From sequence record NC_052654.1: a stretch of 64,000 bases of DNA; one strand, given 5' to 3'. The notes under the pieces are model-generated. The model ran no database searches. It saw only the letters and a program-made list of their open reading frames with translations, and was not told where the DNA came from. Shown here piece by piece: positions 19,148-23,274 of this stretch; positions within the stretch are counted from its first letter, which is position 1; every line of letters begins with the position of its first letter. Origin of the DNA: Escherichia phage vB_EcoM-Ro121c4YLVW. Position numbers and translations under genes: made by a program.

Positions 19148-19942
19148 TTGAGCAAGTTGAACACACTTGATCAATATTACACTAACCCCGCTTATGCGGG
19201 GTTCTTATGTGATAAGATCAAAGAAATTTTTGGAGAGGAAGCTAACTACGTAGAACCATCTGCGGGAGAAGGAGCTTTCTCTTCTTGTTTTAAAAACATA
19301 ACTTCTTTTGATATTGACCCTAAGTTTGAAGATTGTATTGAGGCAGATTTTTTAGCTCAATCTGTTGAGTCTGTTGGTAGCGTAACTGCTTTTGTCGGTA
19401 ATCCTCCATTTGGAAAAAATGCTAGTCTTGCCATTAAATTCTTTAACCATTGTGCTGAAATGCTGGATAACGAAGGTGGTATTTGTTTTATCTTGCCTCG
19501 CACATTTCAAAAAATCTTTTTTGCACACAAACTAAATCCCCATATGCATCTTCTTTACGAAGAAGAATGTCCAAAAGGATCTTTTATTCTTCATGGAGAA
19601 CCTTGGGATGTTCCTTGTGTATTCCAGGTATGGATTAAACGCAACGAGAAGCGTTCTCCCGTTGTTTTAGGAGAGAATCGACTATTCGTATTAGGTAACA
19701 GTAAAGACTACGATATAGCTGTTAGGAGAGCGGGAGCAAGTGCAGGTAGAGTGTTATCAGAAGAAGATTCTTTATCTGAAGCATCTACCTATTTTTTAAA
19801 AGCCTTGACTTCTGATCTTAAAACGCGTATCATTGAGGCTTACCCGTTACTTAAAGCTGAAGCTAGTAAAACTGCGGGAGTAAGAAGTTTAAGTTTAAAA
19901 GAACTTCAGTGGGTTCTGGAGAACATTAGAAAGGAGGAATAG
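19148..19942 (+). CDS. N6-adenine DNA methyltransferase (orphan; gamma-class motif order)
   Basis: Motif I EPSAGEGAF precedes motif IV GNPPFG; TTG start after AAGGAGG. No restriction endonuclease gene is adjacent. Confidence 0.75.
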   Translation: MSKLNTLDQYYTNPAYAGFLCDKIKEIFGEEANYVEPSAGEGAFSSCFKNITSFDIDPKFEDCIEADFLAQSVESVGSVTAFVGNPPFGKNASLAIKFFNHCAEMLDNEGGICFILPRTFQKIFFAHKLNPHMHLLYEEECPKGSFILHGEPWDVPCVFQVWIKRNEKRSPVVLGENRLFVLGNSKDYDIAVRRAGASAGRVLSEEDSLSEASTYFLKALTSDLKTRIIEAYPLLKAEASKTAGVRSLSLKELQWVLENIRKEE

Positions 19943-22900
19943 TGAGTAAGTTTACATGGGATATTGAAGCAAACGGATTGTTGAATAATGACACTATTGA
20001 TTATTTAGCTAGTCCTTATCGTCTCAAAGACACATTTCAAATGCACTGTATTGTCTTAGAGAACCATGAAACAGGAGAAATAGTAGCTTTCCACGATGGC
20101 CCTAAATACATCTTTGATGGGCGTCCTTATGAAGAGTCAGATGGTAAATACACATATGTTCTTAAAGAGTATGTGGCGCAAGATTACACACATTTTCAAC
20201 TAAAAGATTTCCCAGACTTTATTAATCATGAAGGTTATTTTAAAGATAAGCCTGAATATCTGGTTGAAATGGCTGTGGCTCACAACGGTATCAACTACGA
20301 CTGGTTGGCTACAAAACTGTTTTATGGATTAGATTACAGTGTTAAATATAATACGTGGGGCAAAAATAAGGTAAAACTTATTGACTCCTTGATTTTGAGT
20401 AAAGTGTTAAACCCAGATCGAAAGATTGAGGGCAAATCAGGACATAGCTTGGCAGCACTTTCTCGAAAAGCAGGTGGTGATGTAAAAATAGATTTCCGTA
20501 AAGAGATTCCAGAAGAAGATCGATTTAAGACTTTTGCTGCGGATATGCTTTATTACTGTATCTATGACAACAAAGCCAATACGAGCGTATATAATTACCT
20601 TATGGAAGAATGGGGCGATTATGATAAATGGGAAGGTCCATTTGAACTTGAACAACGTGTAGCAGACATTATTACACGCCAGGAACACCGTGGGTTTGCT
20701 TTTAACATGAAGCAAGCAGAAGAGAACCTTGCTTTTTTGGATGCAGAAATGGAGCGTCTTCGTTTACTCGTTGAGCCTATTTTGCCACCTAAACCAGCAA
20801 CAAAAGGTTATCTTAAGGCTTTTATTCCACCTAAGTTGCAAATTAAAAAGAACTTAGAGCCAACTAACCATATGATCAATTTTGCTAAGAAACATGATGG
20901 TCATTTGGAAGAGAGGGATGGCGATTGGTGGTTAGTTATGTTGGGGAAAGAGTGGAAACTGCCAGTTGCAGCAGATGAGCCTCTATGTGATCCTAACATC
21001 CCTGCAACATTGAACGATACAACCCATATTAAAAACTGGCTCGTAGGATTAGGTTGGGTACCGTCTGAATATAAAGATAAAGACTTGACGCTTAAATCTG
21101 GCACCAAAATTAAAAAGAGCGAGGAAGAACTTCAGAAAGGTATTAGAGCTTACGTTGAGCAAACTCTATCTTCTAATTTTTGTCAGGATCGTTGTGATCA
21201 TCTGGAGTGCACACCGGAAACTTTGGAAAGGAAGATTCAAGAGCGTATAGCAAAAGGTAAAGGTCGCGGTCTTAAAGTATTGACTAACCCATGTTTTACC
21301 AAAGGTCAGGAAAAAGAAATTTGTCCTAACCTGCAAGCTTTGGGTGAGAAATTTCCTTATGCTACACAGATTGTAGAATACTTAACGTATAAGCATCGTA
21401 GGAACTCTATTTTAGGTGGCGGTGCTGATTGGGAAGAAGATGAAGAAGATCAAGAATACGATAAAGGTTTCTTAGCCGCAGTAAGGGCGGATGGGCGTAT
21501 TCCTACACCAGCCGCTACATGTGATGCTGCAACCTCTCGTATGAAACATAGATCTGTAGCTAATATTCCTCGTGTCACATCTTTGTTTGGATGGGAGATG
21601 CGTAACTTGTTTGGTGTAGAAGTTCCTAAATACTTCCAGATCGGTTATGACTTCGACTCTTTGGAAGCAAAGATTGAGTCGCATTACTGTGTGCCGATGG
21701 ATGCTCAAGCTTTGACTCGTAAAGGTTGGGTAGGATATCACGACCTGAAGGAAGGGGATGAGATTTTAGGGTACAATGCTGAAACAGGTATGAAAGAATG
21801 GACTAAAGTAAAAGGTAAGGTCTTCTATAAAAATAGTAAGACGTTTGAGATTAAAGGGAAATCACACACTTACCGTGCAACAGCAGATCACCGTTGGTAT
21901 GTTAATACCCGTAGTAAAGGGAATACTTATGTGCCTAAAGTCAGAACAACTGCCGAGCTTTGCACAGGAGATAATATTATTTGTAATGCTCCATTTAACA
22001 TGGAACAAGATCAGGTAAATAGTTTAACTTCTGTTCAACAAGGTAAATGGGATGTTCCGTGGGTAGAGCGTGTAGTTAATATGTCTCATGCCGAGCGTGT
22101 AGCTTTCTTGGAAGGTTTCTTGATTGCAGATGGTTACTGGCATGAACATAAACAAAAACCTGTTTGGCGTTGGGCGCAGAACCCAGGTGAACTTTTTGAA
22201 GCAGCTTTAACTGCCTCGTACCTGGTGCATGGAGGCAATATCTCTGTAGCTTTCAATACAAAAGAGCAGAAAGTAAAAGTGGCAACATTGACTAACCGCT
22301 CTCACATTCCTGTTCAAAGTTTGACTATTGAAGAGTGGGGTGTAGAGGATGTTTGGTGTCCACAAACAGAACTTGGTACGTGGGTCATGCGTCAGAAAGA
22401 CTGCATTACCATCACAGGAAACTGTTGGCGCTACGAACCGGAGCCTCATGAATACTGTAACGCTCTCTTGTTAGAGAAGCCTAACGATGTTCATACCATG
22501 ATGGCAAAACGTATTACAGATACTATTGGGCGTAAATTTGAACGTAGTCCGGCGAAATCTGTTAAATACGGGATCACTTATGGTGCACAAGCAGACAAGG
22601 TTGCTAAAACAATTGGTAGCGATAAATACACAGGGCAACTGGTGTTCGATGCTTTCTGGGAAGCTGCATTCCCACTGGCGCGTCTTAAAGAACGTTTAAA
22701 CGATTTCTGGGTTAAGACTGGTAAACAGTATGTTTTGGGTATTGACGGTCGTAAGGTTCCTACTCGTTCTGCTCACGCGATTCTTAACTCTCTGTTCCAA
22801 AGTGGTGGGGTTATCTGTGCTAAACGTGCAATGGTTATTTATGACGACATGATCGAAGAAGAAGGGCTAAGTGTTGACTTCTTTAAAGATGACTGGAAGA

Positions 22901-23274
22901 ATAAAGACTTCGTGCAACAAATGATTGCATATCACGATGAAGCCCAGCTTGAAGTTTCTCGTAACCTTGTAGAATTTAAATGGTTTTCACCTGAATCATT
23001 AGGTTGGAAGAAAGTAGACGATCCTGAAGAACAAAAGAAAATTGATAAAGAATGCCTTGCTAAAGTTGAAGAATGGAAACATAATAAGGAAAAAGAGACA
23101 GGGCAAATTTGGGCTAACATTCATGAATCTCCCAAAGGTGGATGGTTTACAGCCTATAGTCGGGCAGGTGAACTTGCTGCTTTAGCTGTTACTAAGGCTG
23201 GAGAATTTTACAATCTTAATGTTCAGCTTACTGCCGGATATGATGTGGGTAACTCCTGGGCGTCCTGTCACTAG
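19942..23274 (+). CDS. family A DNA polymerase with 3'-5' exonuclease domain, interrupted by an intein
   Basis: Exo I motif WDIEANGL; motif A region GYDFDSLEAKIESHY; motif B RSPAKSVKYGITYGA; about 245 extra residues lie between motifs A and B. Confidence 0.9.
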   Translation: MSKFTWDIEANGLLNNDTIDYLASPYRLKDTFQMHCIVLENHETGEIVAFHDGPKYIFDGRPYEESDGKYTYVLKEYVAQDYTHFQLKDFPDFINHEGYFKDKPEYLVEMAVAHNGINYDWLATKLFYGLDYSVKYNTWGKNKVKLIDSLILSKVLNPDRKIEGKSGHSLAALSRKAGGDVKIDFRKEIPEEDRFKTFAADMLYYCIYDNKANTSVYNYLMEEWGDYDKWEGPFELEQRVADIITRQEHRGFAFNMKQAEENLAFLDAEMERLRLLVEPILPPKPATKGYLKAFIPPKLQIKKNLEPTNHMINFAKKHDGHLEERDGDWWLVMLGKEWKLPVAADEPLCDPNIPATLNDTTHIKNWLVGLGWVPSEYKDKDLTLKSGTKIKKSEEELQKGIRAYVEQTLSSNFCQDRCDHLECTPETLERKIQERIAKGKGRGLKVLTNPCFTKGQEKEICPNLQALGEKFPYATQIVEYLTYKHRRNSILGGGADWEEDEEDQEYDKGFLAAVRADGRIPTPAATCDAATSRMKHRSVANIPRVTSLFGWEMRNLFGVEVPKYFQIGYDFDSLEAKIESHYCVPMDAQALTRKGWVGYHDLKEGDEILGYNAETGMKEWTKVKGKVFYKNSKTFEIKGKSHTYRATADHRWYVNTRSKGNTYVPKVRTTAELCTGDNIICNAPFNMEQDQVNSLTSVQQGKWDVPWVERVVNMSHAERVAFLEGFLIADGYWHEHKQKPVWRWAQNPGELFEAALTASYLVHGGNISVAFNTKEQKVKVATLTNRSHIPVQSLTIEEWGVEDVWCPQTELGTWVMRQKDCITITGNCWRYEPEPHEYCNALLLEKPNDVHTMMAKRITDTIGRKFERSPAKSVKYGITYGAQADKVAKTIGSDKYTGQLVFDAFWEAAFPLARLKERLNDFWVKTGKQYVLGIDGRKVPTRSAHAILNSLFQSGGVICAKRAMVIYDDMIEEEGLSVDFFKDDWKNKDFVQQMIAYHDEAQLEVSRNLVEFKWFSPESLGWKKVDDPEEQKKIDKECLAKVEEWKHNKEKETGQIWANIHESPKGGWFTAYSRAGELAALAVTKAGEFYNLNVQLTAGYDVGNSWASCH
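21688..22422 (+). mobile_element. intein (Hint domain with LAGLIDADG-like segment) inside the DNA polymerase gene
   Basis: Starts with Cys (CVPMDA, block A-like), TADH block B-like, LEGFLIADGYW endonuclease-like motif, ends ...ITITGN followed by +1 Cys. Flanking extein resumes in the T7-like GDIHT-equivalent region (NDVHT). Confidence 0.7.

What the first reader, a model, noticed from the sequence alone, without database searches (positions are those of the whole stretch)
21688..22422. Intein with LAGLIDADG-like motif inserted next to motif A of the DNA polymerase
The polymerase has about 245 extra residues between motif A (DFDSLEAKIESHY) and the T7-like motif B region. The insert starts with Cys, has a T-x-x-H block B, a LEGFLIADGYW endonuclease-like motif and ends with Asn followed by Cys. 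An intein at the catalytic core is a selfish element whose splicing is required for replication.
Basis: partly seen in the sequence, partly recalled or inferred. Interest (0 to 1): 0.6.

Follow-up and report, generated by a model that had tools for sequence, protein, structure and literature searches.

The report
Intein inside a phage DNA polymerase
The 245 extra residues in this coliphage DNA polymerase are a genuine, recently mobile intein that almost certainly must splice itself out for the polymerase to work; the same intein is already annotated in a few related phage genomes, so the call is correct but not new.

Summary
Confirmed. Window 21688-22422 (+) encodes a 245-aa in-frame insert (Cys1 ... 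Gly-Asn, followed by Cys) in the 1110-aa T7-like family A polymerase (19942-23274) of a Phapecoctavirus-type coliphage. It sits 12 residues after the motif A catalytic Asp. Sister phages (ESCO13, tuntematon, alia) carry the same gene lacking exactly these 735 nt. An AlphaFold model (pLDDT 93.7) matches only inteins and Hint domains in the PDB. The central 85-105 residues form one LAGLIDADG half-domain, not the usual two. The intein is far less diverged than its host gene and under strong purifying selection (dN/dS 0.03). It occurs with and without each of two flank haplotypes, so it has moved recently. GenBank already annotates a 97% identical copy as an intein (phages PaulScherrer and SD2), so the basic finding is known. 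Less obvious: it belongs to a very large phage intein family (2,328 representative clusters) that falls below Pfam thresholds and occupies several polymerase motifs. That family combines an invariant Cys1 with the Trp-Cys-Thr triplet and spacing of class 3 inteins and a penultimate Gly. Whether Cys1 or the block F Cys starts splicing, and whether a half-LAGLIDADG domain can cut DNA, are open.

The parts
19942..23274 (+). Intein-containing family A (T7-like) DNA polymerase precursor. It has 1110 aa (127.6 kDa) and a GTG start that overlaps the TAG stop of the upstream methyltransferase gene.
   Evidence: Pfam DNA_pol_A is above threshold. PHROG 17 (DNA polymerase) scores E 3e-106. The best PDB relative is T7 DNA polymerase (E 1.7e-19).
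19942..21687 (+). N-extein, residues 1-582. It holds the 3'-5' exonuclease region and the polymerase domain up to the helix after motif A.
21649..21687 (+). Motif A region DFDSLEAKIESHY. D570 is the catalytic Asp (T7 D475) and E575 corresponds to T7 E480. The N-terminal splice junction follows Y582.
21688..22422 (+). Intein, 245 aa (28.0 kDa), from Cys1 to Asn245.
   Evidence: An exact 735-nt presence/absence polymorphism is seen. The AlphaFold model has pLDDT 93.7 and pTM 0.90.
21688..21729 (+). Splicing block A, CVPMDAQALTRKGW. Cys1 is invariant in the family.
   Evidence: Cys1 in 137/137 representatives.
21880..21897 (+). Splicing block B core, T65-A-D-H68-R-W70 (B:7 Thr, B:10 His, B:12 Trp).
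   Evidence: hhalign places these residues on S62/H65/W67 of the class 3 prototype MP-Be intein.
22045..22302 (+). Central inserted domain (about residues 120-205): a single LAGLIDADG half-domain with alpha-beta-beta-alpha-beta-beta topology.
22108..22134 (+). The only LAGLIDADG motif, LEGFLIADG, with D148-G149 at the helix end.
   Evidence: D148 is kept in 91 and G149 in 92 of 93 aligned family members.
22351..22395 (+). Splicing block F, VWCPQTELGTWVMRQ. Cys224 (22357-22359) is at position F:4, where class 1 inteins usually have Asp.
   Evidence: The Cys-to-terminal-Asn spacing is 21, as in the MP-Be, Msm and Mle class 3 inteins.
22405..22422 (+). Splicing block G, ITITGN (G:5 Thr243, G:6 Gly244, G:7 Asn245).
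22423..22425 (+). Cys+1, the first C-extein residue and the splice-junction nucleophile. It is also present in intein-free alleles.
22423..23274 (+). C-extein (283 aa plus stop), with motif B (22543-22584) and motif C YHDE (22930-22941).

Best explanation
The insert is a bifunctional-type intein in the essential replicative DNA polymerase of a Stephanstirmvirinae (phAPEC8/phi92-like) coliphage.

Proposed splicing (inferred). The polymerase is translated as a 127.6-kDa precursor. The Hint domain, made of intein residues 1-~100 and ~206-245, folds around the two junctions. A thioester forms at the Tyr582-Cys1 bond. The N-extein is passed to Cys+1. Asn245 cyclises to release the 28-kDa intein. 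An S-to-N shift then leaves a seamless 865-aa (99.7-kDa) polymerase reading ...IESHY-CWRYE... This is exactly the sequence that intein-free sister phages encode.

Proposed mobility (inferred). The element has recently moved into, or been lost from, otherwise near-identical polymerase alleles in two phage genera. The most likely route is homing during co-infection. The central single LAGLIDADG half-domain is the candidate nuclease, and it would have to act as a dimer.

What is shown: the anatomy, the fold, the precise presence/absence, the conservation, and the population-genetic signature of transfer. What is inferred: splicing chemistry, which Cys initiates it, and endonuclease activity.
For: - Exact in-frame 735-nt presence/absence exists between near-identical genes. 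Window, ESCO5 and anhysbys carry the insert; ESCO13, tuntematon, ESCO37 and phAPEC8_ev052 lack it. PaulScherrer carries it and alia lacks it, with exteins 98.8% identical.
- The AlphaFold model has pLDDT 93.7. Every Foldseek PDB hit at E<=1e-3 is an intein, Hint or BIL domain.
- Splice-site residues are invariant in an index-free sample of 137 representatives that are at most 50% identical to each other. Cys1 is 137/137, terminal Asn 137/137, and +1 is always Ser, Cys or Thr (50/49/38). Block B Thr and His are 95/95.
- Relatives exist as mini-inteins that lack only the central domain.
- The central domain is a LAGLIDADG fold with a conserved Asp-Gly and a conserved Gln164.
- Between window and PaulScherrer, dS is 0.47 in the intein but saturated in the exteins. 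Intein dN/dS is 0.03 and the central domain 0.04. Within Phapecoctavirus, extein dS is 0.11-0.26 against 0-0.03 for the intein.
- Two synonymous flank haplotypes differ at -3, -6, -9 and +9 nt from the junctions. Each occurs both with and without the intein.
- About 33 independently isolated lytic phages keep the ORF intact.
- GenBank MZ501100 annotates the 97% identical copy as an intein (BASEL paper PMC8594841).
Against: - No experiment is available. Splicing has not been shown for this intein.
- Pfam Intein_splicing and LAGLIDADG_3 hits are below threshold. There are no NCBIfam or PHROG hits for the insert.
- The penultimate His that normally helps Asn cyclisation is Gly. F:4 is Cys rather than Asp.
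- The endonuclease domain is only half of the usual two-motif intein nuclease. The target site shows no palindromy that would suit a homodimer.
- Transfer between phages could be by ordinary recombination during co-infection, without a nuclease.
Confidence: 0.9

Rival explanations
1. It is the same intein, but it splices by the class 3 route. The block F Cys224, not Cys1, attacks the Tyr582-Cys1 peptide bond and forms a block F branched thioester. The N-extein is then passed to Cys+1, followed by Asn245 cyclisation.
For: - The Trp-Cys-Thr triplet is present at B:12, F:4 and G:5 (W70, C224, T243). Its ungapped register matches the class 3 prototype recovered from phage Bethlehem gp11: Cys to Thr is 19 residues and Cys to Asn is 21. 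The same spacing is reported for the Msm, Mle and Mch DnaB inteins (PMC5222942, PMC7664689).
- The triplet is near-invariant in the family: C 131/137, T 136/137, W 112/137.
- The best PDB sequence match of the family profile is the class 3 AceL NrdHF intein (E 1.2e-5). That intein is also Foldseek rank 3.
- About two thirds of the family has Ser or Thr at +1, as class 3 inteins do.
Against: - Class 3 is defined by the absence of a position 1 nucleophile (PMC2807308, PMC7891396). Here Cys1 is invariant in 137/137 divergent members, which argues that it is needed.
- Class 1 inteins with Cys at F:4 are known (PMC3196547).
- Grafting the Trp-Cys-Thr triplet onto a class 1 intein does not by itself give class 3 splicing (PMC7664689).
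- No coordinates were available to measure Cys224 geometry.
Confidence: 0.3
2. The splicing domain works, but the half-LAGLIDADG domain is a dead remnant. The intein no longer homes. It persists because imprecise loss would kill the polymerase, and it spreads only by ordinary homologous recombination between co-infecting phages.
For: - There is only one LAGLIDADG motif and one alpha-beta-beta-alpha-beta-beta unit, whereas the related nieznany-type intein has two motifs.
- There is no palindromic symmetry at the insertion site.
- The flanks of the site are a recombination-rich mosaic anyway.
Against: - The central domain has dN/dS 0.04.
- Asp148-Gly149 and Gln164 are kept in more than 95% of members at 25-50% identity. 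The single-motif architecture is the norm across hundreds of clusters and many host genes, which is unlike decay.
- All four combinations of intein presence with flank variants 3 nt from the junction exist. That fits repeated site-specific insertion better than random crossover.
Confidence: 0.3
3. The insert is a tolerated, non-splicing domain insertion in the polymerase (an accessory domain), not an intein.
For: No splicing data exist. Family A polymerases do tolerate insertions, for example the T7 thioredoxin-binding loop (general knowledge).
Against: - The fold is Hint, and all splice-junction residues are invariant.
- The same module sits at unrelated positions in unrelated proteins, always flanked by Cys1 and ...GN|S/C/T.
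- It interrupts the helix directly after the catalytic Asp.
- Sister phages do without it.
Confidence: 0.03
4. The 735 nt are a group I or group II intron or another RNA-level element.
For: Phage polymerase genes can carry introns (general knowledge).
Against: - The reading frame is continuous with no stop.
- No Rfam family matches 21300-22800 at E<=1.
- The protein-level fold and selection point to a translated element.
Confidence: 0.01

Closest known systems
The polymerase intein annotated in Escherichia phage PaulScherrer (Bas60, GenBank MZ501100, 'intein-containing DNA polymerase precursor') and in phage SD2 (PQ821640). The same element is unannotated in phi92, ESCO5, ZCKP1 and about 30 other records.
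   Same: It has the same insertion site and the same 245-aa length. Amino-acid identity is 97.1% to PaulScherrer and phi92 and 98.8-100% to Phapecoctavirus copies.
   Different: It sits in a different genus background; exteins are only about 84% identical in protein to PaulScherrer, with saturated dS. The PaulScherrer record places the intein one codon too far 3' (V...C instead of C...N).
Classical class 1 LAGLIDADG inteins such as PI-SceI (Sce VMA), PI-PfuI and the TliVMA intein (PDB 1vde, 1dq3, 7qsu)
   Same: It has a Hint fold with a nuclease domain inserted between blocks B and F. It has Cys1, block B Thr and His, a terminal Asn and Cys+1. These are the best structural matches.
   Different: It has only one LAGLIDADG half-domain (about 85-105 aa) instead of a pseudo-dimeric two-motif nuclease. 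It has no separate DNA-recognition region. F:4 is Cys, not Asp, and the penultimate residue is Gly, not His.
Class 3 inteins (prototype mycobacteriophage Bethlehem 'DnaB'/TerL intein; Msm/Mch DnaB-1; AceL NrdHF)
   Same: It has the Trp(B:12)-Cys(F:4)-Thr(G:5) triplet in identical register. It is of phage origin. Ser or Thr at +1 predominates in the family.
   Different: It retains an invariant Cys1, which the class definition excludes. The penultimate residue is Gly where the prototype has His. The window copy has Cys+1.
Homodimeric single-motif LAGLIDADG endonucleases (I-CreI, I-CeuI, I-MsoI)
   Different: It is embedded in an intein rather than free-standing. It is shorter and lacks the C-terminal helices. 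No palindromic target is evident. Dimerisation is untested.
The second Stephanstirmvirinae polymerase intein (phages nieznany, nepoznato, ukendt, AV126, phiWec187)
   Same: It is in the same intein family (31.7% identity; CVP...TLTGN|C) and the same host gene.
   Different: It has 324 aa with two LAGLIDADG motifs. It is inserted in motif B (KSVKYG|...|CTYGAQ), not next to motif A. Those phages have Thr instead of Cys at the window's site.

Membership tests
Intein (Hint-domain protein-splicing element) | In-frame insertion that is precisely absent from orthologous genes | tested here: met
   ESCO13, tuntematon, ESCO37, phAPEC8_ev052 and alia lack exactly 735 nt (245 codons).
Intein (Hint-domain protein-splicing element) | Nucleophile at position 1, block B Thr-x-x-His, C-terminal Asn, and Ser/Thr/Cys at +1 | tested here: met
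   C1, T65/H68, N245 and C+1 are present in the window. They are invariant in 96 and 137 family members.
Intein (Hint-domain protein-splicing element) | Hint fold | tested here: met
   The AlphaFold model has pLDDT 93.7. Foldseek PDB hits are exclusively inteins, hedgehog or BIL domains; the best is 7qsu (E 5e-8, TM 0.70).
Intein (Hint-domain protein-splicing element) | Reaches the curated Pfam score for Intein_splicing (PF14890) or Hint (PF01079) | tested here: not met
   The score is 17.5 bits against a cut-off of 35.8. Relatives are also sub-threshold. This reflects a limit of the models, not a defining biological feature.
Intein (Hint-domain protein-splicing element) | Autocatalytic excision with extein ligation | not testable with these tools
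   This needs expression with a size check, or mass spectrometry.
Class 1 inteins | Cys/Ser at position 1 with B:7 Thr and B:10 His | tested here: met
Class 1 inteins | Usual assisting residues: Asp at F:4 and His at G:6 (common but not obligatory) | tested here: not met
   F:4 is Cys224 and G:6 is Gly244, and both are invariant in the family. A phage class 1 intein with penultimate Gly splices well (PMC5050341).
Class 3 inteins | Trp-Cys-Thr triplet at B:12, F:4 and G:5 | tested here: met
   W70, C224 and T243 are in the same register as MP-Be W67, C320 and T339.
Class 3 inteins | No Cys/Ser/Thr nucleophile at intein position 1 | tested here: not met
   Cys1 is present in the window and in 137/137 relatives. 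Definitions are in PMC2807308 and PMC7891396.
Class 3 inteins | Block F Cys is the obligate initiating nucleophile (block F branched intermediate) | not testable with these tools
   This needs C1A and C224A mutants.
LAGLIDADG homing endonucleases | LAGLIDADG helix with a terminal acidic residue, and the alpha-beta-beta-alpha-beta-beta core fold | tested here: met
LAGLIDADG homing endonucleases | Two-fold (pseudo)symmetric pair of half-domains in one chain, as in all characterised intein nucleases | tested here: not met
   There is one motif and one half-domain only. Pfam LAGLIDADG_3 scores E 0.15.
LAGLIDADG homing endonucleases | Site-specific cleavage of the intein-free allele | not testable with these tools
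   Only indirect evidence exists: purifying selection and the transfer signature.

The most novel reading that the evidence does not exclude
This intein is one member of a very large, essentially uncatalogued phage intein lineage that keeps an invariant Cys1 together with the class 3 Trp-Cys-Thr triplet and a penultimate Gly. It could be the long-postulated phage-borne, class 1-like progenitor or sister state of class 3 inteins, or it could use both cysteines. Its nuclease may be a single LAGLIDADG half-domain that works by intein dimerisation, an arrangement not described for inteins as far as I could find.
Probability: 0.25. Interest if true: 0.6.

Novelty: already known. Interest (0 to 1): 0.3.

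Why it matters
For the genome itself, it matters for correct annotation. Most of the roughly 33 public records carrying this element call the gene simply 'DNA polymerase I' or 'hypothetical protein'. The one curated record is off by a codon. A 2024 paper still states that no inteins are reported in coliphages (PMC11162368).

Biologically, the replicative polymerase of these therapeutic-candidate phages depends on a protein-splicing step. Redox conditions or cysteine-reactive compounds could therefore modulate it.

For intein biology, easily grown E. coli phages with natural intein-plus and intein-minus pairs (ESCO5/ESCO13, PaulScherrer/alia) offer a convenient system. Three things could be tested with them:
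- homing in phage crosses;
- which of two conserved cysteines initiates splicing in an intein with both the Trp-Cys-Thr triplet and Cys1;
- whether a half-LAGLIDADG domain is an active nuclease.

Tried and rejected
- Sequence-only classification gave weak results. Pfam hits for the insert were sub-threshold, and NCBIfam and PHROGs gave nothing. PDB phmmer hits were E 0.05-0.6. A family profile and structure prediction were needed.
- I tried to align blocks F and G to solved class 3 inteins by sequence: a short C-terminal query, a mini-intein relative, and the A4 profile. Only N-terminal blocks aligned. I recovered the class 3 prototype from phage Bethlehem instead and compared registers directly.
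- Model coordinates are not exposed, so Cys224-to-junction distances could not be measured.
- A palindromy scan of the homing site for a homodimer target gave nothing above background (best 6/11).
- The group I intron or other RNA explanation had no Rfam hit.
- The 'DNA polymerase, part I' annotations in phages alia and muut suggested a split gene. The gene is whole, and the name was merely transferred.
- A search for more inteins of this family in the window found only this one.
- Tori & Perler 2011, on class 3 inteins with N-terminal Ser or Cys, could not be read. What it found about such inteins is therefore not used as evidence.
Full report
**What is there**

The window ORF 19942..23274 (+) encodes a 1110-aa protein. 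Pfam DNA_pol_A is above threshold. PHROG 17 'DNA polymerase' scores E 3e-106. T7 DNA polymerase is the closest solved relative (E 1.7e-19).

By nucleotide similarity, the window comes from a phAPEC8/phi92-like coliphage (Stephanstirmvirinae, Phapecoctavirus). The gene is 98-99% identical to those of TSP7_1, vB_EcoM_REC, AV125 and ESCO5. The insert is 100% identical in protein to Phapecoctavirus 536P1.

Bases 21688-22422 translate to 245 residues, CVPMD...TITGN, and the next codon is Cys. In the T7 alignment, window D570 and E575 fall on T7 D475 and E480 (motif A). The insert lies between the equivalents of T7 F487 and M488, that is, 12 residues after the catalytic Asp. Motif B (RSPAKSVKYGITYG) and motif C (YHDE) follow in the C-extein.

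**It is an insertion, and a precise one**

Megablast separates the related phages into two groups. One group matches the whole 3333-nt gene. The other matches 78% of it in two pieces spanning 2598 nt, which is 3333 minus 735.

Protein and DNA alignments show that ESCO13, phAPEC8_ev052, tuntematon and ESCO37 read ...IESHY|CWRYEPE..., with exactly the 245 codons missing and nothing else changed. The same holds in the sister genus Justusliebigvirus. PaulScherrer has the insert and alia does not, and their exteins are 98.8% identical in DNA.

Cys+1 is a native polymerase residue. It is present in all intein-free Stephanstirmvirinae alleles examined except the nieznany type, which has Thr. It is also present in the distant Pseudomonas phage PAK_P4.

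About 33 of roughly 125-130 Stephanstirmvirinae records carry this insert.

**It is a Hint-fold intein**

On sequence alone the insert is marginal:
- Pfam Intein_splicing scores 17.5 bits against a 35.8 cut-off, and LAGLIDADG_3 scores E 0.15.
- NCBIfam and PHROGs give nothing.
- PDB phmmer hits to the VMA and RecA inteins are E 0.05-0.2.

A profile search found 257 relatives. With a 96-sequence alignment, AlphaFold gave a confident model (pLDDT 93.7, pTM 0.90). All 38 Foldseek PDB hits at E<=1e-3 are inteins, hedgehog or bacterial intein-like domains. They are led by the TliVMA intein (E 5e-8, TM 0.70), a class 3 split intein, PI-SceI and PI-PfuI.

An index-free HMMER scan of 1.84 billion cluster representatives found 2,328 relatives at E<=1e-3 and 840 at E<=1e-10. 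In 137 full-length representatives that are at most 50% identical to each other:
- position 1 is Cys in 137;
- the last residue is Asn in 137;
- the +1 residue is Ser, Cys or Thr in all (50/49/38).

Block B Thr65 and His68 are invariant. Three relatives (P0005, P0008, P0009) are mini-inteins that lack only the central segment. This is the classical sign of a nuclease domain inserted into a Hint domain.

No RNA family matches the region, and the frame is open throughout. An intron is therefore excluded.

**The central domain**

DSSP on the model shows helix 134-148 (ending LIADG), two strands, helix 168-180 and two strands. Modelled alone, residues 100-210 reach pLDDT 82.5.

There is only one such unit and one motif. 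The related 324-aa intein of phage nieznany has two motifs (FLGWLLSDGYY and FLEAFWMADGH). The window's motif aligns with the second of them.

The single-motif form is the norm in the family, with a median intein length of 253 aa. Asp148-Gly149 and Gln164 are kept in more than 95% of members.

A one-motif LAGLIDADG enzyme has to dimerise to cut both strands (established for I-CreI-type enzymes; general knowledge). I found no palindromic symmetry at the insertion site. Nuclease activity is therefore plausible but unproven.

**Evidence of recent mobility and of selection**

Between the window and PaulScherrer, extein synonymous divergence is saturated, while the intein has dS 0.47. Intein dN/dS is 0.03 and the central domain 0.04.

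Within Phapecoctavirus, extein dS is 0.11-0.26 but intein dS is 0-0.03. The intein is therefore younger than the genes it sits in, and both of its domains are under strong purifying selection.

The 200-300 nt around the site exist as two synonymous haplotypes that differ at -3, -6, -9 and +9 nt from the junctions. Both haplotypes occur with the intein (window and ESCO5 versus anhysbys and ECO340P2) and without it (ESCO13 and phAPEC8_ev052 versus tuntematon and ESCO37).

Having all four combinations within 3 nt of the junction is what repeated site-specific insertion (homing) predicts. Fine-scale recombination cannot be excluded.

**Splicing chemistry: an unexpected detail**

The family has an invariant block F, V-W-C-P-x-T-E-x-G-T-W-V-M-x-Q, and an invariant block G, (I/V)-T-I-T-G-N.

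Counting back from the terminal Asn, Thr243 is G:5 and Cys224 lies 21 residues upstream. Trp70 is two residues after the block B His. These are the positions of the Trp-Cys-Thr triplet that defines class 3 inteins (PMC2807308, PMC7891396, PMC5050341).

To check the register, I recovered the class 3 prototype from phage Bethlehem. It is the 341-aa intein in gp11, with S62, H65, W67, C320, F330, T339, H340 and N341, as published.
- The C-terminal 22 residues align without gaps. C224 matches C320, M234 matches F330, T243 matches T339 and N245 matches N341.
- hhalign places T65/H68/W70 on S62/H65/W67.
- The family profile's best PDB sequence match is the class 3 AceL NrdHF intein (E 1.2e-5).

However, class 3 is defined by the lack of a position 1 nucleophile, and here Cys1 is invariant. 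Tori et al. noted that 3 of 37 inteins with the triplet have Ser1 or Cys1. The follow-up paper could not be read.

I therefore do not file the intein as class 3. The safest statement is that it is class 1 by signature but carries a class 3 type triplet and a penultimate Gly. A penultimate Gly is compatible with efficient splicing in a mycobacteriophage intein (PMC5050341). Which cysteine initiates splicing is an open, testable question.

**Context of the family**

The same intein type occupies several conserved family A polymerase motifs in metagenomic phages:
- the window's site, in distant T7-like polymerases (DASGLExR..HY|...|T(Y/W)(K/R)YDNG; P0125, P0132, P0134);
- motif B (AKxxxYA|...|TLYGAG);
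- the TGRxxH|...|SPNxxQ motif.

It also sits in a small 'KFDVYP|SAYANGWA' phage protein at three adjacent positions. In cultured phages it is found in Gordonia tape-measure, portal and TerL genes, Vibrio phage NrdA, and the polymerases of Pseudomonas KIL and Acinetobacter phages.

Sixteen Stephanstirmvirinae records carry the different, two-motif intein in motif B instead.

**Is it new?**

No, not for the basic call.
- GenBank MZ501100 (phage PaulScherrer, BASEL collection) annotates 'intein-containing DNA polymerase precursor' with mature-peptide features. The BASEL paper says inteins were identified by comparative annotation (PMC8594841).
- Phage SD2 is annotated likewise and mentioned in one sentence of its paper (PMC11841896).
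- I found no experimental or comparative description of this intein. One 2024 paper states that no inteins are reported in coliphages (PMC11162368).

The Trp-Cys-Thr-plus-Cys1 signature, the half-LAGLIDADG domain, and the size and multi-site spread of the family are, as far as my searches go, undescribed. They rest on sequence and predicted structure only.

**Verdict**

I am about 0.9 confident that this is a functional, splicing intein. I am about 0.6-0.7 confident that its spread is nuclease-driven, and about 0.3 that splicing starts at the block F Cys. Interest is modest because the element is already annotated in relatives. The mechanistic oddities give it some specialist value.

Noticed in passing
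L003:3001-3975 (phage nieznany MN850598; also nepoznato, ukendt, AV126, phiWec187): A second, different intein of the same family sits in motif B of the same polymerase (KSVKYG|...|CTYGAQ). It has 324 aa, two LAGLIDADG motifs and 31.7% identity to the window intein. These phages have Thr instead of Cys at the window's insertion site and strongly diverged DNA around it.
   Followed up: partly
L001:3004-3738 (phage PaulScherrer MZ501100 annotation): The curated mat_peptide 'intein' is shifted one codon 3' of the canonical boundaries (V...C instead of C...N). Both junction residues are Cys, so comparison with an intein-free allele cannot fix the boundary.
   Followed up: yes
Proteins P0002-P0122 and P0210-P0258 (metagenomic): Most relatives of this intein sit in a small, highly conserved phage protein motif ...KFDVYP|SAYANGWA..., at three neighbouring positions (YP|SAY, SAY|SN, SAYA|SG). 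These proteins often also carry DUF5872, DUF6321 or DUF5661 regions. The function of that host protein is unknown.
   Followed up: partly
Records MG065639, MG065645, MG065650, MG065656 and MG065689 ('Campylobacter phage' A150, A145, B15, C3, A110a): Roughly 146-150 kb records labelled as Campylobacter jejuni phages carry Stephanstirmvirinae polymerase genes nearly identical to those of E. coli phages. The host label looks doubtful.
   Followed up: no
window 21649-21687 and 22423-22700, compared with L004, L006, L008, L009: The polymerase gene is 97-99% identical among Phapecoctavirus phages. An exception is a patch from about 45 nt upstream to about 220 nt downstream of the intein site, where two purely synonymous haplotypes differ by 12-15%. 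This is a local mosaic independent of intein presence.
   Followed up: partly
window 19940-19944: The polymerase GTG start shares its first base with the last base of the TAG stop of the upstream N6-adenine methyltransferase gene (GAATAGTGAGT). This suggests translational coupling.
   Followed up: no
window 1-64000: ARAGORN found no tRNA or tmRNA genes anywhere in the 64-kb window, and there is no second intein of this family.
   Followed up: yes
L012:2423-5002 (phage alia) and phage muut: The product name 'putative DNA polymerase, part I' suggests a split gene. The gene is in fact complete (859 aa, intein-free), and the name was copied from a Pseudomonas phage homologue.
   Followed up: yes
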